From NCBI GenBank assembly GCA_016748015.1, contig JAAOMT010000657.1, forward strand, positions 1-64,000: a stretch of DNA of 64,000 bases, given 5' to 3'. The notes below the pieces were generated by a model. The model was not told the DNA's origin. It searched no databases and saw only the letters and a list, made by a program, of their open reading frames with translations. This DNA is from Geosiphon pyriformis uo1. Its lineage: Eukaryota > Fungi > Glomeromycota. A program made the position numbers and the translations under genes. Below, in pieces: positions 14,222-58,699 of the stretch; position 1 is the first letter of the stretch, and the number at the start of each line of letters is the position of its first letter.

Positions 14222-14657
14222 TTATCACATGTATTAGCCACTGATGTTATATAATTAGCCACCCTATTTTTAAATAGCAATTATTGACCTGATTATTGAC
14301 CACTTTTGATAGCTATATAAGTGATGAATCTCTTAGCTGTAGAAAAGCATATAATAACAAGCATCTGAATAATCAAAAATAAATAAAATAACAACTTTCA
14401 TCTCAATCCTTCTCTTATCACTAATTTCCCTTTCCCTACCTTCAAGTATTTGAATATCTTAAAAATAAAAGATTACTTGTTGGCCTTTTCCTGACATATA
14501 TAATTGTAGCATTTGAAAATTATTTGAATAAACATGACTGAAAAGCACAAGTTGATACCTGATATTGAATTCTAAAAGTGCTGACATGAGACATAGAATT
14601 ATACCAGTGGTGATCAATTGTTGACAGTACAGACTATCTCTCTACCTTTAGAATTTT
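14191..14657 (+). repeat. 3' LTR of B, 3'-truncated
   Basis: Starts TATTATGG (mutated TGTTATGG) after a purine tract; matches 55209-~55720, then diverges. Confidence 0.85.
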
Positions 14658-16218: not shown

Positions 16219-17595
16219 TGTTACGGGATGGTTTTCTTGTTATATTTAATTGCTGATATCCCGTTTTAATTGCAATCAGTCTTTCGTGAGTTCCTCAATT
16301 CTATTTGTGTGATAATGTCACTGTTACACTGAAGGCTTTCTTTTTACTGTTGTGATATAAGTTATTCTTCAATTCTTGATTGTTGTGTGTGTTTATGTAC
16401 TCCTTCTTAGAGGCTGAACTGAAATCTACCCACTGTTTGGGGTCTTCTCTGAGGCTATCCTTGCAATTGCCTAATGTGTTTCTCTAATTTAGAAACACAG
16501 AATGTTAATGGTCTTTAGCGCTTTTCTAATTCTTACAATAAAGCTTTTGTTAATTAGTAACAATGTGAATAATCTTGATCAAGGATTATTCTTCCAAGAG
16601 ATTCAGTTGATGAATGATAGTTTCATTCAATAAATAATACAAGTAAGTTTCTTAATACTTTGGGTTGTGATAGTTCAGTTTTAAATATTCTTTTTTATTT
16701 CTTTTTGATTTTAAAGGTTTCTTGGGATATTTAATTTGAAANNNNNNNNNNNNNNNNNNNNTCAATACTGTGTTATTAATTTGTTGTTGTAATTCTTGAA
16801 ATTGCAAGTTGGTAAGTCGTCCAATACTGTTGGTTGTTATTATGTTCATGGTTGGGTCCAACAATAATTTGTGACAGTTTTCAAATGCTTTGAAAATTCT
16901 GTAAACTGTTTTTGAATAAAATGTAGTGTTGGTTTTTCCAATGAAAGGTTCTAATAGTTGGATAGTTGTTTTGTCAAACACTCTAGTTGAGTCTTTTGAG
17001 TATAATATTTGTATGTTTAAGTGCTTTCCTAGTTGATAATAACAGTAATTAATTGGAAATTTCATTTTCAAGTTGCTAAATGTGTCTGATGTTAATTTAC
17101 TTATTTTTATTTCTTCCATTATTAATGTATTGCCCAATGCTATCTTTAATTTTTCAATAACTTTGCTAATAAATTTGTTGTTATATTTGGCAATATTATA
17201 TGGTTCGAAATTATGTTCCTGTCTCTTATACACATCTTGAAAGTATGATTTAAAGTGGAGTTTGTTGGATAAAATTGGATCTATTGTTTGATAAGTTATG
17301 ATTTTTATTACTTGATTGATTATTTCCCAATATTAAAACTACTGTATATATACATGTTTGTAGTTCTATGAGAAAACACATTGTAATACTTTTTTTTTGA
17401 TATTTCAACCTGGTGTTTGCTGCTATCACCAGTTGGTGTTGGCTGCTATTGTGAACTGGTGCTTGCCACTATCGCGAGATGGTATTTGCTACTATGTTAA
17501 TCATTACCTTTCTAAGATTATTACTGTGTTATATTATGATTGAATAGTTTGTATTATTTTTATGATTCTTTTTGCTAAATTCTTAAACCATAATA
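16219..17595 (-). repeat. 3' LTR of D (inflated by an assembly artefact at 16742-17237)
   Basis: 16219-16741 plus 17238-17595 match 24955-25830. Confidence 0.9.
16742..17237. other. Assembly artefact: N gap + 457-bp duplicate of 17674-18130 + Nextera/Tn5 mosaic-end adapter
   Basis: CTGTCTCTTATACACATCT at 17219-17237, which produces the spurious MYKRQ ORF start. Confidence 0.95.
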
Positions 17596-17608: not shown

Positions 17609-18277
17609 TCAAGATTGAGCTTTGTCAAAATCAAAGTTAATTTCTTCATTAAATTCTAAGTTACTATAGTGGTTCAATACTGTGTTATTAATTTGTTGTT
17701 GTAATTCTTGAAATTGCAAGTTGGTAAGTCGTCCAATACTGTTGGTTGTTATTATGTTCATGGTTGGGTCCAACAATAATTTGTGACAGTTTTCAAATGC
17801 TTTGAAAATTCTGTAAACTGTTTTTGAATAAAATGTAGTGTTGGTTTTTCCAATGAAAGGTTCTAATAGTTGGATAGTTGTTTTGTCAAACACTCTAGTT
17901 GAGTCTTTTGAGTATAATATTTGTATGTTTAAGTGCTTTCCTAGTTGATAATAACAGTAATTAATTGGAAATTTCATTTTCAAGTTGCTAAATGTGTCTG
18001 ATGTTAATTTACTTATTTTTATTTCTTCCATTATTAATGTATTGCCCAATGCTATCTTTAATTTTTCAATAACTTTGCTAATAAATTTGTTGTTATATTT
18101 GGCAATATTATATGGTTTGAAATTATGTTCTTTTCTTGTTTTTGGATTTTCTATTGTTCTTTTTATGTATGTTATTTTGGAGCTATTAACTGTGATTTCT
18201 AGATCGGATTTTAATTATTGTAAGCTTTCAACTAATTGTTGAGTTATATTGTTGATGTTTTCTGGAATAAATATCAT
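17609..18277 (-). pseudogene. ORF3 of D (~222 aa, one stop), unknown function
   Basis: ATG at 18277 in frame with 17609-18049; NYCYYQLGKHLNIQ motif shared with C/E/F ORF3; its stop overlaps the PPT. Confidence 0.78.
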
Positions 18278-24870: not shown

Positions 24871-24935
24871 TTTTGTCTCTTCCTTTTTAGCAATGAATTA
24901 TTGCTAATTATTATTTCCTTTTTTTGATTTTCTTT

Positions 24936-24952
24936 CTTCGTAGGGTTCACCA
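24936..24952 (-). promoter_or_regulatory. PBS of D (TGGTGAACCCTACGAAG)
   Basis: 2 nt from the LTR end; differs from all other PBSs in the window. Confidence 0.78.
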
Positions 24953-24954
24953 AA

Positions 24955-25830
24955 TGTTATGGGATGGTTTTCTTATTATATTTAATTGCTGATATCCCGT
25001 TTTAATTGCAATTAGTCTTTCATGAGTTCCTCAATTCTATTTGTGTGATAATGTCACTGTTACATTGAAGGCTTTCTTTTTACTGTTGCGATATAAGTTA
25101 TTCTTCAATTCTTGATTGTTGTATGTGTTTATGTACTCCTTCTCAGAGGCTGAACTGAAATCTATCCACTGTTTGGGGTCTTCTCTGAAGCTATCCTTGC
25201 AATTGCCTAATGTGTTTTTCTAATCTAGAAACACAGAATGTTAATGGTCTTTAGTGCTTTTCTAATTCTTACAATAAAGCTTTTATCAATTAGTAACAAC
25301 ATGAATAATCTTGATCAAGGATTATTCTTCCAAGAGATTCAGTTGATGAATGATAGTTTCATTCAATAAATAATACAAGTAAGTTTCTTAATACTTTGGG
25401 TTGTGATAGTTCAGTTTTAAATATTCTTTTTCATTTCTTTTTGATTTTAAAGGTTTCTTGGGATATTTAATTTAAAAGTATGATTTAAAGTGGAGTTTGT
25501 TGGATAAAATTGGATCTATTGCTTGATAAGTTATGATTTTTATTACTTGATTGATTATTTCCCAATATTAAAACTACTGTATATATACATGTTTGTAGTT
25601 CTACAAGAAAACACATTGTAATACTTTCTTTTTAATATTTCAATCTGATGTTTGCTGCTATCACCAGTTGGTGTTGGCTGTTATTGTGAACTGGTGCTTG
25701 CCACTATCGCGAGATGGTGTTTGCTACTATGTTAATCATTACCTTTCTAAGATTATTACTATGCTATATTATGATTGAATAGTTTGTATTATTTTTATGA
25801 TTCTTTTTGCTAAATTTTTAAACCATAACA
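24955..25830 (-). repeat. 5' LTR of D (876 bp)
   Basis: TGTTAT...ATAACA termini; matches the 3' LTR with transition differences. Confidence 0.93.
25645..25731. repeat. U3 array of D: ~23-bp unit TGGTGTTTGCTGCTATCRCNAG, ~4 copies
   Basis: Read directly; also at 17410-17495; lies upstream (element sense) of TATATA at ~25580. Confidence 0.75.
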
Positions 25831-25866: not shown

Positions 25867-26502
25867 TTAATATTGAGCTCCATTAAAATTTTCATTTTAA
25901 ATTAGTTCTAATACTTCTTTTTTAAGTATTATTTGTTTGACTCTATTTCTTATGTCTTCTACTTGTATATTGTTCATTTTTCCCCATTGGTTAATGGTTA
26001 TGGTTTTTATGTTAGAGTATAACAGTATTTTTGGATAATTCTGAAATATGTTGTGTAGTCGATAAATTGTTCTAACGTATAGTGTTGAATTTGTTTTCTT
26101 TCTGATAAATTTTTCAATTTGTTGTATTATTGTTTGGTTGAATATTCTCTTGGATTTGTCAACATATAACTCTTAAATATTTAACTTCCGACTTAACTAG
26201 TAGTAACAGTATGATATTAGAAGTTGTTCTGTCCATTGCTTCCAATTTTTTTTTGTAAGCTCTTTTGTTGGTGCCATAATAGGTATTTTCCCAAAAGTGT
26301 TCTTCACTTTTTCTATTAAGTTATTTGACCAGTTTTTATTGTTCTTTGGTGGCCACTGATATGGTGTATTCTTTGTCTTTCTTTTGGTGTTTTGATAGCA
26401 AATTGTTTGATTGTTAATAATAATTTCTATATCTAACTGTTGTTGGCTCAAGGTCTGAAACAATTGTTGAGCTATGATGTGAATATAATCTGGTATTTCT
26501 AT
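25867..26502 (-). pseudogene. ORF3 of C (F-type)
   Basis: ORF 26197-26463 nearly identical to F 51060-51296; ends GAQY* at the PPT. Confidence 0.78.
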
Positions 26503-29337: not shown

Positions 29338-30146
29338 TATTACAGATGATTATTTGGGGTTTTAAATCAAATAACAAACCCATAACTTGGTGCTCAAAAG
29401 CTATTTGCATTGATGATAATCTGAAGGTTTTAAAAGAGTTCTTTGTATAATGGACAGAGATTCAATATTAATGTTGTTGTTGTTGGTAAGTTGTCTTCCC
29501 AATTTCTTTTTCAGCTTGGTGGCCAGATTTATTCTGACAGTTGTGCCTTTCTGGTAAGTTATCCAATAATATATATAATCTACTCTTATTTCTGGGTCTT
29601 TTATCAGGCTATTCTTGATGTCAATAATTCAGTGTTTAATCCTCAATTAATTAATAAACAACAATAAAATCAAAGAAAAAAAAATAAAAGAAAATAAAAA
29701 AAATAAAAAAATAAGCCAAGGCAATTTGCAAGTTAGTATCCCATCAATAGCTGTGATCAAGAGCTATTGTTCCAGTATGATTAAGTGTTAATTTCTATCA
29801 ACATAAAGTGTTAATAGTAAAGAATAGATTGTAATAACAAATATTTATTTATTAGATGATTGTGAATTAGAAGGTTGCTTAAATTAAATCTAAACTGAAA
29901 GGTCTCTCTTTTTTGTCTCTAATGTTATTATTATATATATATAATTTGAGTTCTATGAAATTGCTCATATTCTCGAGCAATGTGCCATATTTTCTTGATA
30001 TTGCTCCACATCACTAAGCAATGTGCCATGATTTCTGACATTGCTCCACATTGCTGAGCAATGTGCTCACATGGATTATTACTATTCTCCTATTGGTTTA
30101 TCTGTTTTCTTATTACTTCTTGTATGCCTTTCTCTTATAAGTAACA
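29338..30146 (-). repeat. 5' LTR of C (~809 bp)
   Basis: TATTAC (mutated TGTTAC)...GTAACA; adjacent PBS TGGTGCTTCCTGTGAGA. Confidence 0.9.
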
Positions 30147-31053: not shown

Positions 31054-31931
31054 TGTTACTCATAGAAATATAGGAAATATATTAGCATAATTATTAGCCA
31101 ATCAAAAGTAGACGTAGTAAATAGAGAATTTCAGAATTCTTCTCAGGAATTGCAAGATTCCAGGAATTACAGAATTCTCACACAAGAAATTGCAGGATTC
31201 CAAAATTCCAGAATTCCTCTCAAAGAAATTACAGGATTCCAAGAATTCCAGGATTCCTGTCATGAAGAATTAAGAAATTGAGGAATCTCAATAATGTATA
31301 TATAGCAGTAATATTAGAAGCTGAAAAAGGGACATCTGAGTTTAAATTTAATCTAAGCAACTTTTCACATCACAAATATCAATAAATAACTATTTCCATA
31401 CCTCAATTTATCCTCCACTATTAACTTTATATTAATAGTAACAAATACTTAAACATGCTGGAACAATAGCTTTTGATTATGACTATTGATAAGATACTAG
31501 TCAAAATTGCCTTGGCTTATTTCTTTATTTTATTTCTGTTTTCTTTATTTCTTTTTTTTATTTCTTTTTTTTTGTTGTTGTATACTAATTGATTAAAAGA
31601 TTAAGTGCTGAGTTATTGATGTCAAGGATAGCCTGGTAAAAGACCCAGAAATAAGGGTAGAATTTTATATATTATTGGATAGCTTACCAAAAGGGCACAA
31701 CTGCCAGACTAAATCCAGCCACCACGTTAAAAAAGAAATTGGGAAAACTCTTGGAAGAATACAGCTACTATTGACGCTATTGAATTTTTGTTCATTATAC
31801 AAAGAACTCAACCAAAACCTTCAAATCATGTAAAACCTTTGGAATTACCAATATCCACATCAAAATAGCTTTTGAGTACCAAGTTACAGGTTTGTTATTT
31901 AGTTCAACAGCAGAAATAATTACCTGTAACA
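31054..31931 (+). repeat. 5' LTR of E
   Basis: TGTTAC...GTAACA; direct repeat of 40287-41161. Confidence 0.95.
31125..31292. repeat. U3 array of E/H: degenerate ~9-nt CAGGAATTC/CAGGATTC units upstream of TATATA
   Basis: Read directly; also at 40357-40523 and 57880-58048. Confidence 0.8.
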
Positions 31932-31933
31932 TT

Positions 31934-31950
31934 TGGTGCTCCCTGTGAGA
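31934..31950 (+). promoter_or_regulatory. PBS of E (TGGTGCTCCCTGTGAGA)
   Basis: 2 nt after the LTR; identical in H at 58702. Confidence 0.85.
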
Positions 31951-31990
31951 TATAATTTTACAGAGAACCAGCATCAACAACAAACCAAAA

Positions 31991-34900
31991 GTGGCAGAAT
32001 CAGAAAGAATAAGAGCCAACCATTTAGGATTTGCGAAATTCCTATTCCAACACTATTGTCAATACTTGGGATTGACTAACAACCATCTATTAGCAGAATC
32101 AGCTTTCAATTTTTACGTCAATAAAAGAATTTCTTATTATCTGGAAACCTCAGTAGATACAAAGTCAGCAAGAGAAAACTTTTACAATGAATTAATTCAA
32201 CAGACTAGTCTACCAGTAAACCACAATTTCGCATCAATCATCACTAAGATTAACAGAAAAATTGAAAATCACACTCAACAAAAATATCTGATCACCTATG
32301 CAAAAAGCAAAAGAAAACTACAAATGCCAGCAGTAATACCCAAGGGAATACAAGTATCTAATTGGAAGAAACAGAGGATTAAATCTCCAATATATCCATC
32401 ATATTACCACACACCCAGAAGTATTATCAACATCACATCAACAAATGTGTCCACCAGCATGAAAACACCAATAACTAGAATTCTCTTCCAGAGTAAACAA
32501 GCAAAAGTTGATCTATTAGGAACATATGGTGATTATTTCGAAGGATTTAAATCATGATCACCAACCCCATCAGGATTTCAATCACCATCATATCAGCCAG
32601 ATTTCAGAACTACTAGTTCCTGGAAAGTGACCGAATCAGAAGAAGAAGAAAACGAAGATCAAGAATTTAATTATCAAAACCCAATCCTACAAAATCCAGA
32701 GATTAGAATCCTGAATATTCAAACCCAGCAACATATAGAAAATCTGGAAATTGGAACTCTGAATATTCAAACACCGCCACAACAGAAAAATCCAAATGCT
32801 GATCAAATTAATCAGCCAAACTTACCTTCAGAAATCATCATTGAACAGCCACTGAATCCTCTTCAAGGATTACTTCAACAACCTGTTCCACCATCTCAGC
32901 AACTGATTCAACCAGTCCAACAAATAGCCTACACGCCCATCGCCAAAATTGAGAAGTTCACTGGTGAGGAAGATAACGCCCAAATATGACTTAATGACGT
33001 CAAGAAAGCCATCGCAGCCAACAGATGGAATGATGCATGTGTCCTGCAGGCCATTCCATATTTTCTCCAGAATATGGCCAACTTATGGTACCAAAGCTTG
33101 ATTAACAAGCTCCAGGATTTTACTGCATTCAAACAGGAATTTTTCTAGTACTTTAATAATAATAACAGTATCAATTACCTAGCCAATGCCTTCACCAGCA
33201 TTAGACAAGGAAAAACAGAAGCAGTCACCACTTACTTGGGACACTTCCATTGCAATCTGCACCAAATCCAAGCCATAGACATTAACTACTTCACAATGCC
33301 ACAAATCCTAAACCAGTTTATTCGCGGCTTATGCAGCAGCATCTTGCAACGTGTACATCCATTATATCCAGCCAACCTTTAAGCAGCAGTCACACATGCC
33401 CGAGATTTCAAATTAGCTAAACTTGAAGCCAACCATGCCCAAGCTGTAAATCTAACAATGAACAGATCATCTGAATTGAATTCTAAATTGAAACAATTCA
33501 GTAATTCCATCAATCAAAAATTAGAGGGATACTTAGCTAACAATCGAGCAATTTATCAACTTCCACAATGATGCAACAATCAAGAAAACTCTAATCGTTC
33601 CCAAAATCAGACGTGTCCATCGTTATCAACCAATCAACCTTGGCAGTAGAAAATGCATGCTTGCCACTATTGTGATAGGCAAGGACACATACAAATTGAC
33701 TGCTGTCAATGCTTAAATAACCAATGATCGGGAAATCAATATCGAAACCCCAATTGCTGGTTCCAAACTCCGAATCAGTACTCAAATCAAAACCAACCTG
33801 CTTACCTATCAGTGACGCAGTCATCAGTTTATTAGTCTCTGATATATCAAGCTCCAATTTATCAACCACAGCCACAAGTAATTTATTAACAACTGCAGCC
33901 ACAAATAATCTATCAACCCCAACAAATTCAAATACTGCCCCAAAACTTACCACCCAATGGAACACAAAGACCAAGAATGACTCAACAGAGCTGGAGATTG
34001 GCAATAGTAGTCCATCAACTGATCTCCAGTTCTTTACAGCAACCATCTGGATTATGCCAGCAGAATTCAAATACTGGTCAACCCCAGAACCCAAATTCTC
34101 AGAACTATTTAAGTCTCCTGATCAACCCCAAAGACGCCTCAGCCAATAACCCAGAATTCGCCCAAAAACAACCACTTACCAATAATATCCCATCTGCTAC
34201 CATCACCGAGAACAAGTCCTTGGCTGCTATCTTCCTATTTAAATTCGAGGAAACAACTGCAATACCGTTATTTAGTGGAGCCACTCTTGAAGCCAAACTG
34301 ATTACCGTGATGTACATTGATACCAAAGTTAAGGAACAATCCATCAAATTGATTCTTGACAATGGGTTAGCAAGCAGCATTATCACCAGGCAACTCATAG
34401 ACCAATTAGGTCACCAAGTTGACTGAGCTGCCAGTGCTAGAATTATCACCACTGATGGAGCGACCAAAACTCCAATCAGCGAAATTGATGACTTCCCTTT
34501 CGAAGTCAATGACATTGTGACTCCCTTAAAGTTTTAATGATGGAAGCCACTCAATACCAAGCTCTTATTGGTAATAACTGGCTATTCAAAGTCAACGTGA
34601 CACTAGACTGAAATACCCAAAAACTCCAGCTAGCATTCAATGATTAATATGCATGTGTGCCAACCACGTGTGGCCACTTCAAGGCTCCTTCAAAAGAACA
34701 ACCATTGATTGAGCTAGAAGAAGAAGAAAAGAAGCCTATTTGGGAAGCTTATCAAGTCTTTTGGGCTGATGTCGACCACAACAAACTACCACTCATACTC
34801 TCATGAGATGACAAGAGAAAGAAAAAGAAAGAAAAAGAACTTGCCTGAAAGCCAAACCTAGGAACATGGAGTGATGACAGCCAGAGCAAACCAACCGCTG

Positions 34901-37900
34901 AATGGAATTGGGAAGAAAAAGAAAAAGGAAAGAAATGAGAAAAAAAACTGACACTAGCCAACAAGTTGACTTATGTCTTATACACTTACCAACCACCAGC
35001 TCAATACCATCGACCCAAGCTAGTGTGCATCAATTGTGACAAGAAATTATCATCAATGGGCACATGTTGCAACAAAGATGAGGAATAGTCCACTGCAACC
35101 AAATACTACTGTCACCCATGTATCTTTAAACATGATGGATGACCACCAAAAATAGGAAAATGGGATGGCACCTTGTGTTTAGCTTGTGGAGATACTCTCT
35201 TAGATAAAGGGATGTGGAAAAACATTCCTGGAAGAGGAGGAGCATGCGATAAGACATGCCAATACACAATCCTAATTAACAACTGGGTACAAAAGAGAAT
35301 GCCCATCGACAACATCTGAAAATGAGCATTAAGATGCCTAGAAAGATACCCACATGATGAAGATGAGATTTGGAGAATGGCATATGCGATGTCAGAAGGC
35401 ACTACAACAGAAGAGCTAAGAGAAATTAAAAACAACCCTTTATTTCTGCCAGAACCAGAATATGTCCAAATGTTTGATGTATTTGGCAATGTTGAGGATG
35501 ACCTAGAAGAATTTTACAAACACTACCAATGACTAACACCCACAAGAGAAGAACAAGAAGAGTGTTTAGCACAACTAAACACTCAATTATGTGACCACTG
35601 TTTGATCCCATGTGACTTTCAATATTGTAATAAGTGTGACCTTATTTACAATTTACCACCACACATGATCTACACAATCCCAAAAGAAGAAAAACCAATC
35701 AGTAGATGCATATCAGAATCAAATTTCAATCCCAATTCAAACTCCGACAATGATGACAATGAAAACACTGATTCCAGTTCTGTTCAAAATGGCAATAATG
35801 ATAACAATAATATAAGTTCAAATTTAAACTTTGATTCAAACCCTGAACAATATATCACACTTCCTGACCTCACCAAGAACCAAAAACTTAAATGGTTTAG
35901 TGATAATGATGAAGGTATTATGCCAGAATGTGCACATGATACTGATGCAGGGTTTGATTTGAGATATCCAGGGAAAAATGCCATCAAATTGGAACCATAC
36001 TCATGCACCAGCATTGATTTGAAAGTAGCAATGGAGATTCCAGCTACCACCATAGTTCTACTAACATCTAGGAGTAGTTTAGCAAAGAAGAGAGTCAACA
36101 TCAGAGGAGAAATAATTGATGCAGGATATGTAGGAAATATTATTGCTATGTTACAAAATAACTCAGAAAAGGCTTATACCATCAAGCCAAATAAAAAAAT
36201 AGCACAGGCAATATTTCTACCTTTAGTTAAAGTAGCTAGATTAGTGTCAATGGGAACAAGAGAAGAATTAGGGATGACAGCAAGAGGGATACAGAGATTT
36301 GGATCCACGGGTAGAATAGATGTGCCAGTCAATATGGCAGAAGAAGAAATTGTTGGCAAAAGAGAAATTATCTTCATCAGTCAACCAATTTCTATTCTGC
36401 CATATGGCCAGTACATGGTAGTTATAGAGTGGAAAGTGAAAGATCAAGATCAGATTTTTGAAGTGGAACTGATGCTTTGTGAATCAGAAAAAATTGGACT
36501 TATCAATCTCTATGTGCCAGCCAAAAACCATAGCCACATAAAAATTTCCATTTACAACAACACTGAAGACATTATCAAAGTTTCAGAAGGAACCACAATT
36601 AGACATTTAAGCACAGAAGTAGAAGACTAGCCACCACACTACATTCCAGATTTTCTACAACTTTGTGAGTACATCAATATCACATTACAGGCAATTTACA
36701 GACAAAATAAATGTTACTTGCTTCAACCAGAACAATTTGAACAAATGAACATGAGTAACTTAGACCCACTCCAACAGATGCAACTCAAAATGTTGCTCAA
36801 CAAATTCAATAATATCTTTGCCAGTGAAAATGAATTTGGCAAAACTGATATTATTCAGCATCAAATCAAAACTGAAGATGTGATGCCAATCAAACAGCGA
36901 GCATACAGAGTACTACCCGCCAGCCATGAGATCATTTGTTAAGAAATCAACCAGATGCTTAACAACAGGCTAATTCAGTCATCAATAAGCCCATGGTTAT
37001 CACCAGTGATACTTGTCTGTAAGAAGAATAGAAAAATTTGCTTTTGTGTGGATTATAGAAAACTCAATAGTGTAACTTATGGAAAGAGTTATCCAACTCC
37101 ATGGATTCAGGAACTATTCGACACTTTCGGTAGGAAGAAATGGTTCTTAACATTAGACTTGGACAGTGGTTATTGGCAAGTAGCCATGAACCCAGATGAC
37201 AAAGAAAAGACCGCTTTTACCACCAGAGAAGAGAATTTTGAGTTTGAAGTCATGCCATTTGGCTTAATAAATACACCAGCCACATTTCAATGGCTAATAG
37301 AGATTGTATATCGAGGCTTGCTATGGAAGTCAGTTGTAATATACTTGGATGACACCAACGTGTTCTTAGAAACATTTGATGATCATCTTCACTATGTACA
37401 ACAGGTGTTTGAGAGACTGAAAAAAGCTGAATTAAAGCTAAATGCTAATAAGTGTTTCTTTGGAAAAACAGAACTTCAGTTTTTGGGACACATGATGAGC
37501 AAAAACGGCATCAAGACAGACCTAGAAAAAATTGAGATGGTCAGAAACTTTCTGGAACCAAAGAATCTCACAGAATTAAGAGCATTCTTGGGGTTTGCTA
37601 GATATTACTAATGCTTTATCCAAAACTTCTCCAAAATAGCCCAACCATTGAATCAATTATTAGCAAAAAACATTAAATATGAATGGACTAAAGCACAACA
37701 AGAAGCTTTCGATATATTAAAAAAGCAGCTAATCCAAGCTCCAGTACTGATATACCCTGATCACAACAAGCCATTCATGATCACTACGGATGCATTAGGT
37801 TAGGCATTAGAAGCAGTATTATCATAAAGAGGTCCAGATGGAAGAAAACATTCAGTAGCATATGCAAGCAGAGGTTTGACTCCAGCAGAAAGAAACTATA

Positions 37901-38145
37901 GAATGCCAGCACTAAAACATTTGGCTATCTATTGGGCAGTAACAAAATGGAAAAAATATTTGAGCCAAAAATTTGATATCTACACTAATTACAAAGGATT
38001 GACATCAATCCAGAAACAAGAAATTGAAGATGGACGTCATGCCAGATGAAAAATAGAATTATTACCATTTAATTATACAGTACATTACAAAAAGAGAAAA
38101 GACAATAGAAATGCAGATGGAGTGTTGCAAATGAGGCAGATCTAG
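31991..38145 (+). pseudogene. ORF1 of E: gag-PR-Cys-rich-dUTPase-pseudo-dUTPase-RT-RNase H
   Basis: GTG at 31991; CHYC..H..C; ILDNG; DAGFDLRY/SRSSLA/IIDAGYVG/KIAQA/FGSTG; YLDD; ends NADGVLQMRQI*. Confidence 0.92.
35911..36312 (+). pseudogene. dUTPase domain of E
   Basis: All five trimeric dUTPase motifs within the open ORF 35602-36630. Confidence 0.92.
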
Positions 38146-38207
38146 AAACATCTCAACCCAAAAATATAGCAAAACCAACACAACTCAAACAAAAATATAA
38201 CAAAAAG

Positions 38208-39600
38208 ATGAATACACAAAAATATCAACAACTCCAACACTATATTAATACTCAATTGTTCAAGGAGAAATTATCTCAAAAGGAACAAAACCAGATAAAA
38301 CAACAATTAAAATATTTCATCACATACCAGAATATACTTTATTGGAAAAACAGAAAAGAGCCTAATCAACTACTCAGAGTTATTACCAAGCCAGAAAAAG
38401 AGACAATATTATACAACATACACTCAGATCCCACAGCAGGACATTTTCATAAAGAAGCCACAATGGAAAGAGTCAGAAAAAGATACTATTGGCCATCAAT
38501 ATATTCAGACATCATTCAATACATTCAAAATTTTAATGCTTGCCAAAGAAGAAGAGGAACAAGGCCCAGTGAACCATTAAGACCAATCAAAGTGAGACAA
38601 CTATTTGATTGAATTGGAATTGACTTAGTTGGACCATTGACAATCACCAGCAGAGGAAACAGATACATAGCAGTAGCCATAGACTATCTTACCAAATGGC
38701 CAGAAGCAAAAGCAATTCAAAGAGCAGATGCAGAATCTGTTGCCAAATTTGTTTATCAAGATTTAATCTGTCAACATGAATGTCCAAAAAAATTACTTTC
38801 AGACCAAGGAACTTATTTTGTGAACAGAACATTAGCAGAATTAAGCCAAAAATTCGGAATTAAGAGGCCACTATCATCACCATACCATCCACAAACCAAC
38901 AGATTAGTTGAAAGGTTTAACAGAATATTGTGTGAAGTGATAGCCAAACTGAACCAAGAAAATCAAAATGATTGGGATTTGTTAATACCATCAGTATTAT
39001 TTGCTTATTAGACAATGAAACAAGATACTACACAAGCAACACCATTTGAGTTGGTATACGGTAGAACAGCAACACTACCAGTTGAGATAGAAGTCAACAT
39101 GTATTCAACAGAACCAATAACAGAAGACAATTTCCAAGAAACATTATTGAGAAGAACATATGATTTAATGGGAACTCTAGAAGACAAACAACAAAGAGCA
39201 GTTAATAACATACAAAAGTCACAAGAGAAACAAAAAGAAAGACATGATAACCAACTACCAGATAAACCAGTTGAATTCAGGATTGAAAACAAAGTACTAC
39301 TACATTGTACTAAAGCGGAAAAACAATGGAGTGAAAATTTTGATTCCAAATAGGACAGACCATTTCACATAGAAGAAATTCTAAGAAATAAAGCTTATAA
39401 ATTAAGATTAAACAACAAAATCTTGACCAAAGCAGCATATGGAGATCGACTGAAACCATACCACCATATAGCATCATCATCTACCAGTAATATTCTACAA
39501 TTAGGAGTACAGAAAATACTAGTCCAACCAGATGAGATTTCATGAGATCTGGAACCAATTATTATTATTAACAACAACACGTCCAATTGATCGACAAAAG
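38208..39600 (+). pseudogene. Integrase of E (separate ORF)
   Basis: MNTQKYQQLQHYI..., HSDPTAGH, DLVGP, LSDQG, ERFNR, GPF-like motif. Confidence 0.92.
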
Positions 39601-39643
39601 AATATATAAGAACATGATCAATGTGACAAAAGAGATCAGAAAA

Positions 39644-40273
39644 ATGGAAATTACAGACAAGATCCATTCACTAGCCCAACAAATTTTTTAATTAATCCAA
39701 TACCAGGAGATGGAAATTACAATCAATTAACAAACCATTTGTTACAAAAATACGGCAAAGATATCACAAAACAAAGCATAGAAAAGACTTGAAAATATTG
39801 TTGACAAAATCATTACAAAAGTAAAATTGGCAATAAAAGAATTGACAAAAGAGTCAATATACCAAGAGTTGATGAAAGAAACTTGGAATTGGTGGATACA
39901 ACAATTTCCAAAAAACTATTGTTATTTTTACTTAGGACAACATATAAATATCCAGAACTTATATACAGATAAAACAAAGCGGTTATTCAACACAACAATA
40001 CTACAACAACTAGAACATTTTGTGGGGAAAAACAACTTATTCACACAAGCTCGAGCTATATATCGAATACACACAGCATTTTAGAATCGACCAGAAATTC
40101 TATTCAACAAAGCAATGGATATGGTTACCAGTAATCAATTGGGAAAAATTACCAATGCTCAATTTAAAGAATTACAGACTCAAATAACACAAGTAATTTT
40201 CGAAAATGAAATTCAGAAAATACTTCAAGAGGGAGAATTAAAAGAATTGGATTTTGACGGAGCTCAATATTAA
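39644..40273 (+). pseudogene. ORF3 of E, unknown function
   Basis: AAAATGG start; NYCYFYLGQHINIQ; ends FDGAQY* overlapping the PPT. Confidence 0.78.
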
Positions 40274-40286
40274 AAGGAGTGAATAA

Positions 40287-41161
40287 TGTTACTCATAGAA
40301 ATATAGAAAATATATTAGCATGATTATTAGCCAATCAGAAGTAGACATAGTAAATAGAAAATTCCAAGATTCTTCTCAGGAATTGCAGGATTCCAAGAAT
40401 TCCAGAATTCTCACACAAGGAATTACAGGATTCCAGAATTCCAGGATTTCTCTTAAAGGAATCACAGAATTCCAGAAATTCCAGAATTCCTGTCATGAAG
40501 AATTGAGAAATTGAGAAATCTCAATTATATATATATAACAGTAGTATTAGAAGCTGAAAAGACATCTGAGTTTAGATTTAATCTAAGCAACCCTCCACAT
40601 CACAAATATCAATAAATAACTATTTTCATATCTCAATTTATCTTCTACTATCAATTTTATGTTGATAGTAATGAATACTTAACCACGCTAGAACAATAGC
40701 TCTTGATCACGACTATTGACGAGATACTAATCAAAATTGTTATGGCTCATTTCTTTATTTTATTTCTGTTTTCTTTATTTTTATTCTTTATTTCATTTTC
40801 TTTGTTGTTGTATACTAATTGATTAAAAGATTAAGCACTGAATTATTGATATTAAGGATAGCCTGGTAAAAGACCCAGAAATAAGAGTAGGATTTTATAT
40901 ATTATCGGATAGCTTACTAAAAAAGCATGACTGCCAGACTAAATCCGGCCACCATGCTGAAAAAAAAATTGGGAAAACTCTCGGAAGAATACAGCTACTA
41001 TTAATGCTATTGAATCTCTGTCCATTATACAAAGAACTCAACCAAAACCTTCAGATCACATAAAACCTTCAGAATTACCAACATCTACATTAAGATAACT
41101 TTTGAGCACCAAGTTATGGGTTTGTTATTTAGTTCAACAGCAGAAATAATCACCTGTAACA
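40287..41161 (+). repeat. 3' LTR of E
   Basis: Preceded by PPT AAAAGGAGTGAATAA; followed by the TSD. Confidence 0.95.
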
Positions 41162-41399: not shown

Positions 41400-42260
41400 T
41401 GTTACTTATAAAAAAAAACAGATATAGAACAATAGTAGGCCAATAAAAAAGCAGTAGTTAGCACATGAGCATATTGCTTAACAATATGAAACAATATCAG
41501 AAATCACAGCACATCACTCAGCAATATGGAGCAATGTTAAGAAAATATGGCACATTGCTCAGCAATGTGAACATTGCTTGAGAAATTATAGCACATTACT
41601 TGAAAATATGAGTGATTTTATAAAACCCAAATTATGTATATATAGTGGTAGTATTAAAAGTAAAAAAGACAGACCTCCTAGTTTAGATTTAATTTAAGCA
41701 ACCTTTTCATTTACAAATATCAATAAATAATTATTCACTATCTTAATTCACTCTCCACTATCAACACTTTATGTTGATAACAATTGATACTTAACCATAC
41801 TAGAACAATAGCTCTTAATTATGGCTATTGATAGGATACTAACTTGCAATTGCATTGACTTATTTCTTTATTTTTTTTATTTTTTTTATTTTCTTTTCTT
41901 TGATTTTATTGTTGTGTACTAAATTGATTAAGAGGATTAAAGCACTGAATTATTGACATTACGGATAGCCTGATAAAAGACCCAGAAATAAGGGTAGAAT
42001 TATATATATTAACAGACAGCTTACCAGAAGGGCACAACTGCCAGATTAAACTGGCCGCCATGCTAAAGACAGAAATTGGAAAAACAACTTGAGAAAAACA
42101 ACTTAAACTAACCATAGTGAATCTTTGTCTATTCTATAAAGAACTCTGCAACAAACTTTCAGATCCACCAAATCTTCAGATATCAACACCAGAATACCAA
42201 ACCAGCACCAAGTTATGGATTTGTTATTTGACTTAAGACCCCAAATAATCATCTGTAACA
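41400..42260 (+). repeat. 5' LTR of F
   Basis: TGTTAC...GTAACA; palindromic U3 array; homologous to the C LTRs. Confidence 0.92.
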
Positions 42261-50988: not shown

Positions 50989-51622
50989 ATGGAAATACCA
51001 GATCATATTCACACTATAGTTCAACAATTGTTCCAGATCTTAGTCAACAACAGTTAGACATGAAAATTGTTATTAACAACCAAATAATTTGCTATCAAAA
51101 CACCCAAAGAAAGACAAAGAATACACCATATCAGTGGCCACCAAGAAATAATAAAAACTGGACAGATAACTTAATAGAAAAAGTGGAGAACACTTTTGAG
51201 AAAATACCTATTATGGCACTAACAGAAGAGTTTACAAAAAAAATTGGAAGCAATGGACAGAATGACTTCCAATATTATATTGCTACTACCAGTTAGATCA
51301 AAAGTTGAATATTCAGAAGTTGTATATTGACAAATCTAAGAGATTATTCAACCATGACATATTACAGCAAATTGAAGAATTTATCAGAAAGAAAACAAAT
51401 TTAACACTATATGTTAAAACAATATACTGACTACACAACATATTTCAAAACTATCCAGAAATACTGTTACACTCTAACATGGAAACCATAACCATTAACC
51501 AATAGGGAAGAATGAACAATACACAAGTAGAAAATGTGAAAAACAGAGTTAAACAAACAATACTTGAAAAAAAAGTACTAGAATTAATTCAAAATGAAGA
51601 TTTTGATGGAGCTCAATATTAA
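50989..51622 (+). pseudogene. ORF3 of F
   Basis: AAAATGG start; ends FDGAQY*; near-identical to C ORF3. Confidence 0.78.
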
Positions 51623-51635
51623 AAAGAGGAGATAA

Positions 51636-52243
51636 TGTTACTCATAAAAAGAAAACAGATATAGAACAAGAGTAGGCCAATAAGAAAGCAGTAATTAACA
51701 TGTGAGCACATTGCTTAGCAATGTGAAGCAATGTTAAAAATCATGGCATATTGCTCAACAATGTGGAGCAATGTCAAAAAAATATGGCACATTGCTCAGC
51801 AATGTGAGCATTGTTTAGAAAATTATAGCACATTGCTCGAGAATGTGAGCAATCTCATAGAACCTAAATTATATATATATAGTAGTAGCATTAGAAGTAG
51901 AAAAGACAGACCTCCCAGTTTAGATTTAATTTAAGCAATCTTTCTATTCACAAATATCAATAAATAATTATTTACTATCTTAATCCACTCTCTATTATCA
52001 ACACTTCATGTTGATAGCAATTAATACTTAACCACACTGAAACAATAGCTTTTGATCACGGCTATTGATGGAATACTAACTTGCAATTGCATTGGCTTAT
52101 TTCTTCATTTTTCTTTATTTTTTTTATTTTCTTTTCTTTGATTTTATTGTTGTGTACTAAATTGATTAAGAGAATTAAAGTGCTGAGTTATTAATGTCAT
52201 GGATAGCCTGGTAAAAGACCCAGAAATAAGGGTAGAATTATAT
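51636..52243 (+). repeat. 3' LTR of F (5' part; interrupted by G)
   Basis: Matches 41400-~42003. Confidence 0.9.
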
Positions 52244-52978
52244 TGTTATGGGTTGGAGTAACAAGCTAATAGATAGCAAGGGAGAACAGGATTGTATGGT
52301 AATGGAAATAATCAAAAGAAATTCAATTTCAATAAGTAAATTGAATAAGTATGAATTCAATGTACAAGATCAGTCTTATAAAATATCTCAGTGGCTATTC
52401 TTTTCAAAAAGTAACAAGAGAATCTGAAAGTAGAGAGATAGTTTATACTGTCAACAATTGATAACTGCTGGTATAATTCTATGTCTTATATCAGTGCTCT
52501 TAGAATTTAATATCAGGTATCAACTTGTGCTCTTCAGTCACGTTTATTCAAATAATCTTTAAATACTGCAATTACACATTTTAGGAAAGTGCCAACAAGT
52601 AATCTTTTATCCAAAAGATGTTCAGATACTTGAAAATAGAGAAAGAGAAATTAGCAATAAAAAAATGTTTAAGATAAAAGTTTGTTATTTTATTTCTTTG
52701 ATTGTCTTGATTTTTTACATTGATTTTTTTCTACAGCTAAGAAACTCATCACTTATATATCTATTGAAAGTGATCAACAACCAGATCAATGATCAGGTTA
52801 ATAATCAGGTCAATGATCAGATTATTGATCAGGTCAATGATTAAGTCAATAATCAGGTTAATAATCAGATTGTTGATCAGGTCAATGATCACTATTTAAA
52901 AATAGGGTGGTTAATTATATGACATTAGTGGCTAATACATGTAATAACTAATAAAAACTATGAGTTTCAACCATAACA
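52244..52978 (-). repeat. 3' LTR of G (735 bp)
   Basis: TGTTAT...ATAACA; homologous to 14191- and 55209-55900. Confidence 0.92.
52770..52890. repeat. U3 array of the B family: ~12-bp GATCAGGTCAAT, ~9-10 copies
   Basis: Read directly; ~6-7 copies at 55298-55380 and ~2 at 14282-14301. Confidence 0.85.
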
Positions 52979-53603
52979 TCATCCTCTCCAAAAAGATTGA
53001 GCTCTGGCAAAATCAAACTATTTAGGGAATACTCAATTTGAAGGGTTTTATCTAACTCAAAACTAACTAGTTTGTTAAAGTCTTTTGTGGATAAGATATA
53101 TAAAACTTGAGGCGAAATGAGCTTTGTGTTCAAGAGACCAAATCTTTGTATAAAAGTTTTGGCTTTTCTTGCAATGGTCAAAACTCTTGGGACATCTAAT
53201 CATACAATGTCCAAAATTTCCATTTGTATCTCAGAAGTTGTTTTCTTTATGAGCTTTATGTCTTCTATGATTTCACCAAGGCAACCATAGAATTCTAGTT
53301 GTCTTTCATATGACAAGTTTTTGTCTATGGGCAAGATATTTTTAATTGTTTTTCCAATTGTGATAGAAGATGCAAGTATTGCTGCTGTTATATTTTCCAG
53401 CAAATACTTATCCATTTTGCTACCAATTCTTTCTTTTCTGATAGTTGTTTTCTTTGGTCTAATAACAGTATGTGTTCCACTGTTGTCAGTTATTGTAGTT
53501 TGTTTTTCAATGGTCAGAGTAGCATTTGGATAGTTTTAATCCAATATTCATAAAAAGTATAGAAAGCATTTTGAATGTTTTGATCCAGAAAATAATTGTT
53601 CAT
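52948..53603 (-). pseudogene. ORF3 of G (B type)
   Basis: ORF pieces 53514-53699, 53200-53415 and 52948-53181 match B ORF3. Confidence 0.75.
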
Positions 53604-55023: not shown

Positions 55024-57801
55024 TTACTTGGTGGTAAGTCTGAAGAGAGTGTTAGCATTTTGATAATTAGCTCTTTTATGGTGTTGAATATCATAGTTGA
55101 ATTCATCCAAGTAGAGTATTTAGTGAGTTATCTGTTTATGTTCTAATTTTTTCTTGTTGTGCAGCCAAACCAAAGCTTGGTGATCTGTTACCACCAAAAA
55201 CTTTACACTGTTATAGTTGAAACTCATAATTTTTATTAGTTATCACATGTATTAGCCACTGATGTTACATAAGTAGCCACTCTATTTTTAGATAGTAATC
55301 ATTGACCTGATCAATGACCTGATTGTTGACCTGATCATTGATTTGATTATTGACCTAGTCGTTGACCTGGTCATTGACCACTTTCAATAGCTATATAAGT
55401 GATGAATCTCTTAGCTGTAGAAAATCATCTCTCAGACAAGAATCAAATAAATAAAAATAACAACTTTCATCTCAATCACTCTCTTATTGCTAATTTTCCT
55501 TTCCCTACCTTCAAGTATCTGAACATCTTAGGATAAAAGATTACTTGTTGGCCTTTTTCTATTTGAATAATTGTAGTATTTGAAAACTATTTGTATAAAC
55601 ATGACTAAAGAACACAAGTTAATACCTGATATTGAATTCTAAAAGTGTCGATGTGAAGACATAGAATTAATACCAGCGGTGATCAATTGTTAACAGTACA
55701 GACTATCCCTCTACCTTCAGATTCCTTTGTTACCTTTTGAAAAGAATAGCGACTGAGATATTTTATGAGACTGATCTCACACATTGAATCCATACTCATT
55801 CAATTTGCTTATTGAAGTTGAATCTCCTTTGATTATTTTCATCACCCTACAATCCTGTTCTCTCTTGCTATCCGTTAGCTTATTACTCCAATCTGTAACA
55901 ACACTAAGGAGATACTTATCTCAGTAATTGGTAGCTCAAACTACTGCTAAGCATTCCTGTTTAGTAACTGAATAGTTCTTTTCTGCTGATGTAAGGGTTC
56001 TATTAGCATAAACTATTGCATGTTCTCTGCCATCTTCATTTTTTTGTAAGAGAACAGCACCAAGTCCATAGCCAGATGCATCAGTGTGAAAAATGAAAGG
56101 TTGATCCAGATCAGGTTGCTTAAGAATAGGTTCTGTAACCAATTTTTCTTTGAGAGTTTCAAATGCTTTCTGTTGATGTGTGCCCCAATGGTAATTGATA
56201 TTTTTCCTGAGTAGCTGATTGAGTGGAGAGGCAATTTTGGAGAAATCCTTAACAAATTTGCGATAATAGAAGACCAAATCAAGGAAAAAAGTAACTCATG
56301 AACATTCATTGGTTGTCTTATGTTCTGAACTTTTTTCACTTTGGCTGGATCAAAGAAGATTCCATTTTTTGTAATAAAATGGCCAAGGAATTGGGTGAAT
56401 TGTCTTCCAAAGAAAGATTTGATTGGGTTAATCTTGAGATCTGCATTTTTGAGAAAATCAAAAACCTTTTGCAAATATTCAAGGTATTCATCCCAGATTT
56501 TTGAGTACACCATTATATTGTCCAGATAGACCAGAACAAAGTTTTCTTTTACTGATTCAAATACTTTATCCATTAAATGTTGAAAGATGAGAGGAACATT
56601 AGTGAGACCAAAAAGCATGATTGTGAATTCATAGGTGCCATACTTGGTGATAAAGGTGGTTTTCTTCCGGCTTTCTGGATCCATCTCTACTTGCCAAAAT
56701 CCAGCAGTTAGATCAATGGTTGAAAAGAAAGCAGCATTTTTGAATTGGTCCAGCATTGTATCAATCTTGAGAAGTGGATATATGTTTCTTTTAGTAATGG
56801 TATTTAATTGGTGGTAGTCAACACAGAAGCATAGGGTTCTACCTTTCTTGAATACCACTAGAACTGAGAAAGCCTATTCACTCTTGGTTTTTTGTATAAA
56901 TCCAAGTTCTTTCATCTGGTTTATTTCTTTTTTGATAAACTCATTATTTCAGTAATTGGATTGGTAAGGCTTTAAATGAATGAGGCAAGTTTCTCTGGTG
57001 GTGATAGTGTGTTGTATCACATGAGTTTGTCCTAAGGTATTACCTTCTTTTGAGATAACTGGTTGTTTCTTGCCAACAGATTTTTAATGTTTATCTTTCT
57101 TTCTTCTGAGGAAAGTTCTCTTTGTTTTACTACTAATGATTAGATCTCAGATGGTTCATTCTTAAAAGACTTCTGTACTTCTTTTAATTCATCTCTTGGT
57201 ATTAGGCTAATTGGTTCCCAATCTTTGTAATAGATTAGGCATGATTTGCATTCATCACTTGGAGAATACAAAGGTTTATTACACCAGCACCGAGCACAAG
57301 GATCATACCACCAATAACTGTATTTGGCTTTCTTGCCAGGCTTTTGGTCAAAGGTTCTTTTTAGAATATCATAGTAGGGCCAGTAGATCAGCTTGCCATT
57401 TACAATGATTCCCTCTCTATTAGCTTTAACATTGTCTAATGGCTTGCCATCACTCATGAAGGTGGTGTAGGTGAGTTTAGCAGTTTCTTCTTGTTCTTCT
57501 TGTTCATCTTCTTCATTATCTGATTCCTCTGATTGCTCATCTTCTTGATTTTGTTTAGTTGCTGGAGGAGTTGTCCAATGGCGACATTTAACCACAATAG
57601 GTTTTTCACCACATTTGATGGTTAGCTTACAAAGTTCATAGTCGAGTAAGGCTTTTGCTTTCTTGAGCCACTCATTGCCAACAATGATGGTGTATTCTTT
57701 AGCTTCAGAAACTTCCATGTCAGTTTCAATACTGATGCTATTGAAGTAAACAGGAATAGCTTTGGCAATGCCCAGACTTTTTTTCTTGTTATTATATACG
57801 T
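55024..57801 (-). pseudogene. PR (3' part)-Cys motif-RT-RNase H of G, interrupted by a solo LTR
   Basis: YLDN (mutated YLDD), HTDASGYG, ECLAVV. Confidence 0.9.
55209..55900 (+). mobile_element. Solo LTR of family B (692 bp), antisense within the RNase H of G
   Basis: TGTTAT...GTAACA; perfect TSD ACAC (55205-08 / 55901-04). Confidence 0.94.
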
Positions 57802-58699
57802 TGTTACTCATAGAATATAGGAAATATAGTATTATTAGTCAGTAGATATTAGCCAATCAGATGTGGACGTAGTAAAATGTGGAATTCTAAGATTCCTCTC
57901 AGGAATTGCAGAATTCCAGAAATTACAAGATTCTCACACAAGGAATTGCAGGATTCCAAAATTCCAGAATTCCTCTTAAAGGAATCACAGAATTCCAGGA
58001 ATTCCAAGATTCCTGTCGTGAAGAATTGAAAAATTGAAAAATCTCAATTATGTATATATAGCAGTAGTATTAGAAGCTGAAAAAGAAACATCTGAGTTTA
58101 GATTTAATCTAAGCAACCCTTCACATCACAAATATCAATAAATAACTATTTCTATATCTCAATTTATCCTCCACTATCAACTTCATGTTGATAGTAACAA
58201 ATACTTAAACATGCTGGAACAATAGCTTTTGATCATGACTATTGATGGAATACTAATCAAAAATTGCCTTGGCTCATTTCTTTATTTTATTTCTGTTTTC
58301 TTTATTTTTTTTCTTTATTTCATTTTCTTTGTTGTTGTATACTAATTGATTAAAAGATTAAGTACTGAGTTATTGACATCAAGAATAGCCTGGTAAAAGA
58401 CCCAGAAATAAGGGTAGGATTTTTATATATTATTGGATAGCTTACCAGAAGAGCATGACTGCCAGACTAAATCCAGCCACCACACTAAGAAAGAAATTGG
58501 GAAAACTCTCAGAAGAATACATCTACTATTGTTACTATTGAATCTCTGTTCATTATATAAAGAACTCAACTAAAACCTTTAGATCATGTAAAACCTTCAG
58601 AATTACCACCACCCACATCAACAGAAATCAACATAGCTTTTGAGTACCAAGTTATGGGTTTGTTATTTAATTCCACAGCAGAAATAATCATCTGTAACA
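57802..58699 (+). repeat. 5' LTR of H
   Basis: TGTTAC...GTAACA; homologous to the E LTRs. Confidence 0.92.

What the first reader, a model, noticed from the sequence alone, without database searches (positions are those of the whole stretch)
39644..40523. Possible lock-and-key cassette: a non-env ORF3 paired with a family-specific U3 tandem array
Seen: every element whose 3' end is visible carries a ~210-220 aa ORF3 between IN and the PPT (B, C, D, E, F, G). It has no obvious signal peptide or TM segment. C/D/E/F share a YCY[YF]xLG...YR...F...I/LG+xxNxQ pattern, and B/G show a weaker Y-x-x-L-G/S...ARR..F...L...DF version. Directly downstream, each U3 holds a different tandem array just ahead of the TATATA box: palindromic CACATTGC-TSA-GCAATGTG (C, F), CAGGAATTC-like (E, H), 23-bp TGGTGTTTGCTGCTATC (D) and 12-bp GATCAGGTCAAT (B, G). 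ORF3 type and array type match one-to-one. E and F have very similar pol and R/U5 but differ in both ORF3 and array; C and F share both. Inference: ORF3 is a sequence-specific transactivator or anti-silencing protein for its own LTR (analogous to foamy-virus Tas or VANDAL VANC), exchanged with U3 as one module.
Basis: partly seen in the sequence, partly recalled or inferred. Interest (0 to 1): 0.85.

Follow-up and report, generated by a model that had tools for sequence, protein, structure and literature searches.

The report
Fungal retrotransposon third gene plus enhancer
Decayed fungal jumping genes in this window each carry an extra gene for a small protein of no described family next to a family-specific repeat in their promoter; the two are likely swapped between subfamilies as one block, and the protein may be an activator of its own element, but a one-to-one lock-and-key fit is unproven.

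Summary
The observation largely holds. Six nested Ty3/Gypsy elements, likely of Geosiphon pyriformis by protein hits, carry a 209-222-codon ORF3 between integrase and the 3' LTR. Four ORF3 types match four U3 array types. ORF3 is a real gene: C/D/E/F types are homologous (dN/dS 0.30-0.45) and open copies exist elsewhere. An intact distant relative sits at the same place in a metagenome contig. It has no membrane segment, Pfam family or fold match. B/G homology to the others is unproven. Between E and F, ORF3 plus U3 form one deeply diverged block (transversions 0.21-0.28 per site, against 0.02 in integrase and 0.08 in R/U5), so block exchange is supported. That linkage is expected from retroelement recombination, and n is only four families. 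Two weak outside records pair an ORF3 subtype with an unexpected array. Binding was not testable. I put a self-activator role at about 0.4, nearly tied with host-factor enhancers plus a hitchhiking gene, and strict lock-and-key at about 0.25. The scan noted a similar U3/ORF3 arrangement before in another genome.

The parts
31054..41161 (+). Element E, complete decayed Ty3/Gypsy LTR retrotransposon (LTRs 31054-31931 and 40287-41161, 4-bp target duplication)
38109..39590 (+). Integrase region of E (with stops), ending just before the ORF3 leader
39603..39609 (+). TATA-like box about 40 nt upstream of the ORF3 ATG; similar boxes upstream of ORF3 in F, C, B, G, none clear in D (read by eye, not tested against chance)
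39644..40273 (+). ORF3 of E, 209 codons, 4 in-frame stops
40250..40297 (+). Short homology island shared by E and F: ORF3 end, polypurine tract and LTR start
40358..40500 (+). E 3' U3 array, GGAATT/GATTCC units, about 40-bp period, between a CCAAT box (40331) and the TATA box (40526)
31127..31262 (+). E 5' U3 array
57883..58014 (+). H 5' U3 array (E type; H's 3' end is outside the window)
50989..51622 (+). ORF3 of F (C/F type, frameshifted)
51706..51853 (+). F 3' U3 array, palindromic CACATTGC-TCA-GCAATGTG units, 41-bp period
41508..41600 (+). F 5' U3 array
25867..26502 (-). ORF3 of C (211 codons, 3 stops, start codon lost); C lacks most of pol
16017..16158 (-). C 3' U3 array, separated from its ORF3 by the insertion of element D
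29976..30066 (-). C 5' U3 array
17609..18277 (-). ORF3 of D (222 codons, 1 stop)
17411..17495 (-). D 3' U3 array, four 23-bp units
25646..25730 (-). D 5' U3 array
13565..14221 (+). ORF3 of B (218 codons, 1 stop); runs through the PPT into the LTR
14280..14303 (+). B 3' U3 array remnant (about 2 units of 12 bp)
52948..53603 (-). ORF3 of G (B/G type, frameshifted)
52782..52891 (-). G 3' U3 array, nine 12-bp TGACCT/GGTCA units
55298..55379 (+). 12-bp array in a B/G-type solo LTR (55209-55901)

Best explanation
These Ty3/Gypsy elements carry a real third gene for a soluble, mostly helical protein of about 210 residues and no described family, which likely is exchanged between subfamilies together with the U3 enhancer array as one block and would most likely act in the nucleus as an activator of the element's own promoter. 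Shown: the gene, its position, purifying selection, the arrays between CCAAT and TATA boxes, and a block of deep divergence from just after the ORF3 ATG to the LTR TATA box. Inferred: (1) ORF3 has its own mRNA from the TATA-like box at the end of IN. (2) The block arises in reverse transcription. First-strand transfer between co-packaged RNAs joins one RNA's U3 to the other's R/U5, and a template switch in the conserved IN end closes the block (established retroelement biology, recalled). (3) The helical core binds the dyad-symmetric U3 units and the acidic, hydrophobic tail activates transcription. One-to-one specificity is a further, untested step.
For: Purifying selection between types: dN/dS E-C 0.39, E-D 0.43, C-D 0.30, C-F 0.45, all bootstrap ranges below 1; B-G 0.58 (0.36-1.11) is not significant. 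Open near-full-length copies exist elsewhere: 51 of 120 listed B-type hits align over more than 185 residues, and intact E and C types were found. Three of E's four stops sit where most public contigs differ from the window by a transition; the fourth was not among the rows shown. Block: E-F transversions per site 0.021 in IN, 0.205 in ORF3, 0.28 in U3, 0.08 in R/U5; synonymous differences 0.31 in IN against 0.66 in ORF3. The same anatomy occurs in independent contig L001: IN, intact 230-aa ORF3 running into the LTR, and a different repeated U3 motif, TTGCCCT (5 matches, shuffles reach at most 3). That motif also lies twice upstream of L001's ORF3 (0 of 1000 shuffles), as foamy-virus Tas sites lie at both promoters (PMC3798896, passages). 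pI is 9 or more in 8 of 11 proteins and the last 25 residues are net acidic in 10 of 11. The core (about residues 80-190) is predicted with block-mean pLDDT of 80-93. Inverted-repeat excess at p<0.05 in 8 of 15 arrays.
Against: No DNA-binding fold was found, and no binding or expression data exist here. Linkage alone predicts the co-variation, n is 4 families, and gag and RT also have their own histories. Gene model P0285 joins an ORF3 end that is 52-58% identical to the E type and 38-46% to the C type with a C/F array. The other informative models (4 of 5) join E-type ORF3 to the E array. Such joins cross predicted introns and can be nested insertions, as P0215 and P0206 show. One contig of run X2 (depth 2, 54 nt at 85%) joins a different ORF3 end to an E-like array piece. 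The cognate motif is not enriched upstream of ORF3 in any of the 6 window elements. L001's two upstream copies belong to one 21-bp tandem duplication, so they count as one event (about 0.02 by chance, before allowing for 4 motifs tried). A-rich DNA inflates lysine content. The acidic tail partly overlaps the purine-rich PPT in B, the M type and L001. Tnt1 subfamilies differ mainly in U3 (PMC1838419, passages), with no ORF3 as far as I recall.
Confidence: 0.42

Rival explanations
1. The U3 arrays are ordinary enhancers for host transcription factors that turn over by slippage. ORF3 has another job for the element (RNA binding or export, suppression of RNA silencing, nuclear import, particle assembly) and co-varies only because it is adjacent to U3 and recombines with it.
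For: The block is what strand transfer produces. Subfamily-specific U3 regions are known in Tnt1 (PMC1838419). Arrays vary in length by whole units among copies (joints skipping 38-42 and 81 bases). Two weak mismatched pairings exist. The motifs resemble host-factor sites from recall and untested: TTGACC W-box in B/G, bZIP-like ATTGC/GCAAT in C/F. An ESM Atlas look-alike of the B type was the RNA-binding repressor RegA at 0.83, below the 0.9 lead threshold.
Against: A homology island of about 50 nt between ORF3 and the array would allow separation, yet C and F (15% apart) and B and G keep their pairs. All 5 ORF3 lineages seen with their U3 have a different motif. L001 has its U3 motif next to ORF3's own putative promoter.
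Confidence: 0.38
2. ORF3 is a VANC-like anti-silencing protein that binds the array and removes DNA methylation from its own family.
For: The window is strongly CpG-depleted (observed/expected 0.23). TEs are CG-methylated in a related fungus (10.1101/2021.03.30.436303, passages). VANC targets are short motifs accumulated as tandem repeats (PMC5735166, passages).
Against: Arrays are not protected from transitions: 61 of 201 G/C sites against 126 of 503 in R/U5, p=0.16 (a weak proxy on dead copies). The arrays are confined to the enhancer position in U3 rather than spread over several non-coding regions. No sequence match to any Pfam family was found.
Confidence: 0.12
3. ORF3 acts on the host cell or on rival elements (toxin-like, interference or exclusion factor) and diversifies for that reason.
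For: ORF3 diverges much faster in amino acids than IN (36-45% against 63-78% identity) while staying under selection.
Against: No catalytic or membrane signature. The faster divergence is largely explained by the older history of the block.
Confidence: 0.08

Closest known systems
Ty3/Gypsy LTR retrotransposons with additional non-env ORF3s, e.g. bdelloid rotifer elements (PMC5408684, abstract and outline seen)
   Same: Third ORF between pol and the 3' LTR, dUTPase in pol, modular exchange.
   Different: Those ORF3s are env-like, GDSL esterases or DEDDy exonucleases. This one matches no Pfam family or solved fold.
Plant Retand elements with TRP28 ORFs and tandem arrays (PMC11963269, passages seen)
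   Same: An extra ORF of unknown function after pol, proposed to bind DNA and regulate the element; tandem arrays nearby.
   Different: TRP28 ORFs are antisense and the arrays lie in the pol-LTR interval. Here the ORF is sense and the arrays are in U3. No TRP28 (PF04195) hit.
Foamy virus Tas (PMC3798896, passages seen)
   Same: Small (209-308 aa), poorly conserved 3' accessory protein, internal promoter, target sites in U3, acidic activation domain. Here these are resemblances only.
   Different: Tas belongs to env-bearing retroviruses and its binding is shown. No homology was detected here, and binding, promoter use and activation are untested.
VANDAL VANC anti-silencing proteins (PMC5735166, passages seen)
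   Same: Family-specific short motifs amplified as tandem repeats; a family-specific accessory protein.
   Different: VANDALs are DNA transposons (recalled) with motifs in introns and upstream regions. No homology and no sign of local protection from deamination here.
Tnt1 subfamilies defined by U3 (PMC1838419, passages seen)
   Same: Related elements that differ mainly in a fast-evolving, modular U3.
   Different: Tnt1 is a Copia element without ORF3 (recalled). Here a coding gene is part of the variable block.

Membership tests
Ty3/Gypsy LTR retrotransposons (Metaviridae) | Domain order gag, protease, RT, RNase H, integrase | tested here: met
   Pfam hits in this order, with dUTPase, most completely in D and A; E shows dUTPase, protease-like, RT, IN
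Ty3/Gypsy LTR retrotransposons (Metaviridae) | Paired TG...CA LTRs, target-site duplication, PBS and PPT | tested here: met
   E: LTRs 88% identical, 4-bp duplication, PBS-like and PPT sites
Env-class ORF3 (errantivirus-like envelope) | Signal peptide and transmembrane segment, large glycoprotein | tested here: not met
   Best 19-residue hydropathy 0.27-1.29 in 11 of 11 proteins of 192-239 aa; no signal-peptide predictor was run
Foamy virus Tas transactivators | Sequence or fold homology to Tas | tested here: inconclusive
   No such family listed in Pfam scans or fold searches
Foamy virus Tas transactivators | Expressed from an internal promoter | tested here: inconclusive
   TATA-like box upstream of ORF3 in 5 of 6 elements (two lineages by descent), by eye; no RNA data
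Foamy virus Tas transactivators | Target motif at both the internal promoter and U3 | tested here: inconclusive
   0 of 6 window elements; present in L001 as one tandem duplication
Foamy virus Tas transactivators | Binds and activates the cognate LTR | not testable with these tools
   needs EMSA or reporter assays
Foamy virus Tas transactivators | Encoded by an env-bearing retrovirus | tested here: not met
   Gypsy elements with no env between IN and LTR
VANC anti-silencing proteins | Family-specific motif in tandem repeats in non-coding DNA | tested here: met
VANC anti-silencing proteins | Local loss of DNA methylation at the motif | tested here: inconclusive
   Proxy only: transitions per G/C site 0.30 in arrays, 0.25 in R/U5, p=0.16
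VANC anti-silencing proteins | Sequence-specific binding by the protein | not testable with these tools
   needs binding assays
YhcG N-terminal domain (DUF1016_N, PF17761) | Profile homology | tested here: inconclusive
   One of 11 proteins hit at E 0.037; profile-profile score 14.5, equal to the mean of 60 block shuffles (14.3, max 25.5)

The most novel reading that the evidence does not exclude
A Ty3/Gypsy lineage of Glomeromycotina fungi encodes its own sequence-specific transactivator of a new fold. It is made from an internal promoter and co-evolves with a tandem operator array in U3. Protein and array are swapped between subfamilies as one regulatory cassette, giving a set of orthogonal activator-enhancer pairs. 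This would be a complex-retrovirus-like circuit in an env-less retrotransposon.
Probability: 0.25. Interest if true: 0.8.

Novelty: new variant of a known kind. Interest (0 to 1): 0.5.

Why it matters
Extra ORFs in LTR retrotransposons are common and mostly unexplained. Here several natural ORF3/U3 pairs with short, simple motifs and intact public copies make the regulatory idea directly testable in a cognate versus non-cognate matrix. LTR sequences cover 41.2% of the G. pyriformis genome (PMC11952901, passages), so a self-activator could help explain that burst. Hundreds of 'hypothetical proteins' in that genome's annotation would be reclassed as transposon ORF3. If the rival holds, it is still an undescribed protein family with a confidently predicted, unmatched helical core.

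Tried and rejected
No genome is held for the window, so no genome-wide ORF3 versus array test was possible. Pfam, PHROGs and PDB sequence searches gave no credible family; the TTC3_9th hit (E 1.3e-5, below cut-off, 3 of 49 members) was rejected as a coiled-helix match. Fold searches with the E-type model gave nothing: Foldseek PDB and viral 0 at E<=0.001, VIA best Z 5.1 over 63 residues at rmsd 3.6 and 3.5. The core was not folded alone, so a small helix-turn-helix match could be hidden; this is not evidence of a new fold. ESM Atlas: best 0.85 unnamed and 0.83 RegA, both below lead level. The YhcG-N idea was tested and not supported. B/G versus C/D/E homology was not significant in 5 tests; the B model is too poor to search with. 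Locus searches found nothing in metagenomes with the C/D/E profile or in viral contigs. No RNA holder was listed, which says nothing about expression. Only 8 of 352 loose ends were shown for E, so a search for recombinants at the PPT island is inconclusive. The 53-column tree does not resolve where the E2 subtype sits. Integrase comparisons with D were out of frame and were redone. The homodimer question stays open: no complex prediction was obtained. Literature: no paper describing this family appeared in 5 searches aimed at it; the library lacks most subscription journals, and no supplements were read. I recall similar 'hypothetical proteins' in other Glomeromycotina genomes; this is from memory, and the searches here did not reach them.

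Full report
Setting. The window is a nest of decayed Ty3/Gypsy LTR elements with gag, protease, dUTPase, RT, RNase H and integrase hits. All named protein hits of ORF3 are Geosiphon pyriformis 'hypothetical proteins': 6 of 6, 120 of 120 listed of 126 and 120 of 120 listed of 130. The host is therefore likely this Glomeromycotina fungus or a close relative. LTR sequences cover 41.2% of its genome (PMC11952901, passages). Decay is by transitions: CpG observed/expected is 0.23, and the window copy of D differs from most public contigs mainly by private C>T/G>A changes. No genome was available.

Observation. Element E runs 31054-41161 with a 4-bp target duplication. Its ORF3 (39644-40273) has 209 codons and four stops; three of the four sit where most contigs of run X1 differ by a transition, and the fourth was not among the rows shown. 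ORF3s are present in B, C, D, F and G too. C/D/E/F are homologous, 36-45% identical between types and 77% for C-F. B/G is not detectably related by sequence. Its low-confidence model has the same order of elements: helix, beta-hairpin, linker, helical core. Each U3 has an array just ahead of the TATA box, in E, C and F with a CCAAT box upstream: about 40 bp in E/H, 41 bp in C/F, 12 bp in B/G, 23 bp in D. Motifs are family-private. Eight of 15 arrays tested have more short inverted repeats than shuffles at p<0.05; E5, D, A, B's remnant and L001 do not. The match of types is 4 of 4 families.

ORF3 is a real gene. dN/dS is 0.30-0.45 for E-C, E-D, C-D and C-F, with bootstrap ranges below 1; dS is near saturation between types, and B-G is 0.58 (0.36-1.11). 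Among listed hits, 51 B-type, 4 E-type, 2 D-type and 1 C-type database proteins align over more than 185 residues. The exhaustive profile search gave 103 hits. Of 20 whose source I looked up, 17 are Geosiphon (including two further ORF3 types), 2 are metagenomic full-length relatives and 1 is an unrelated bacterial protein. One relative lies on contig L001 in the same position: RT-RNase H, integrase, an intact 230-aa ORF3 running through the PPT into the LTR, and a U3 with its own repeated motif before the TATA box. The proteins lack membrane segments (11 of 11), are basic in 8 of 11 and end in an acidic tail in 10 of 11. AlphaFold2 gives pLDDT 76 overall and block means of 80-93 over residues 81-180. 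No family or fold match was found. A resemblance to the YhcG N-terminal domain failed its test.

The block. E versus F nucleotide identity is 0.82-0.86 in IN, 0.59-0.64 in ORF3, 0.49 in the array and 0.79-0.85 in the first R/U5 windows. Transversions, which ignore C>T decay, are 0.021 per site in IN, 0.065 in RT, 0.205 in ORF3, 0.28 in U3 and 0.08 in R/U5; synonymous differences are 0.31 in IN and 0.66 in ORF3. ORF3 and U3 thus share a deeper history than their flanks. The edges are just after the ORF3 ATG and at the LTR TATA box, with a ~50-nt conserved island around the PPT in between. gag (0.07-0.10) and RT are also more diverged than IN, so these elements are mosaics throughout. From established retroelement biology (recalled), first-strand transfer naturally joins one RNA's U3 to another's R/U5, and one more switch in IN yields exactly this block. 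Co-inheritance therefore needs no functional fit.

Tests of lock-and-key. For: every ORF3 lineage seen with its U3 has another motif. TATA-like boxes lie about 40-47 nt before the ORF3 ATG in E, F, B and G and at the matching place in C, but not clearly in D (by eye). In L001 the U3 motif also occurs twice upstream of ORF3 (0 of 1000 shuffles), though as one tandem duplication. Against: none of the 6 window elements shows its own motif enriched upstream of ORF3. Among 319 database proteins, 6 gene models include U3 sequence. Four join E-type ORF3 to the E array, one (P0285) joins an E-like subtype to the C/F array, and one is an upstream nested LTR. P0285 is 52-58% identical to E-type and 38-46% to C-type ends, but the tree does not resolve it, and such joins cross predicted introns. 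One shallow contig of run X2 joins another ORF3 end to an E-like array piece. Arrays are not protected from transitions (61 of 201 against 126 of 503 G/C sites, p=0.16). No RNA evidence was available.

Mechanism and rivals. I commit to a nuclear self-activator made from an internal promoter (0.42), by analogy with Tas (PMC3798896, passages) and on position, charge pattern, dyad arrays and L001. Nearly as likely (0.38) are host-factor enhancers with a hitchhiking gene of another function, as U3-defined Tnt1 subfamilies suggest (PMC1838419, passages). VANC-like anti-silencing (PMC5735166, passages) gets 0.12 and a host-directed role 0.08. Strict cognate specificity is about 0.25.

Novelty. Extra ORF3s in Gypsy elements are known (PMC5408684, abstract and outline; PMC11963269, passages), and a DNA-binding regulatory role has been proposed for plant TRP28 ORFs. 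This protein family did not appear in five searches aimed at it. An earlier scan note on another genome reached a similar reading of U3 arrays and a neighbouring gene; it is not independent evidence. Verdict: new variant of a known kind, interest 0.5.

Noticed in passing
window 17218-17236 and 16762-17224: A Tn5/Nextera adapter-like sequence (identity recalled; its reverse complement also appears at a joint) sits beside a 99% duplicate of part of D's ORF3 and an N gap. This is an assembly artefact, not a second ORF3.
   Followed up: partly
window 16219-25828: Element D, the youngest by LTR identity (96%), is inserted in the U3 of C's 3' LTR with a 4-bp duplication, separating C's ORF3 from its array.
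   Followed up: yes
window 26958-26970: Element C is a deletion derivative that keeps gag, the 3' end of IN, ORF3 and both LTRs. Retention of ORF3 in a non-autonomous element may matter or may be chance.
   Followed up: no
window 7400-7570 (-) and 45660-45733 (+): Family A LTRs carry a fifth array type (about 20-bp units); the family's 3' end and any ORF3 are not in the window. One gene model (P0319) links the K-type ORF3 to A-type R/U5.
   Followed up: partly
window 40378-40489 and 51706-51853: The E/H and C/F arrays have nearly the same period (40 and 41 bp) and both contain ATTGC, although their motifs differ. They may descend from one array that changed in concert.
   Followed up: no
L001 774-799: A stop after RNase H and a new ATG for integrase, as earlier notes on this genome described for the window's lineage; the integrase of L001 also has one internal stop.
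   Followed up: partly
L002 425-811: A further 128-aa ORF lies between the integrase end and the ORF3 relative in this contig.
   Followed up: no
ORF3 linker, e.g. window 26400-26350 (-); P0274, P0286, P0313: A basic P-Y-x-R/K motif is kept in the C, D, M and metagenomic types but not in E. It resembles a PY-type nuclear localisation signal (recalled, untested).
   Followed up: no
window 55209-55901 and 45482-46438: Solo LTRs inserted in other elements: a B/G-type solo LTR in opposite orientation inside G, and an A-type solo LTR inside F.
   Followed up: partly
window 24535-24897 (-): A weak Pfam PAZ_2 hit (E 2.4e-5, just above its cut-off) in the N-terminal gag region of D.
   Followed up: no
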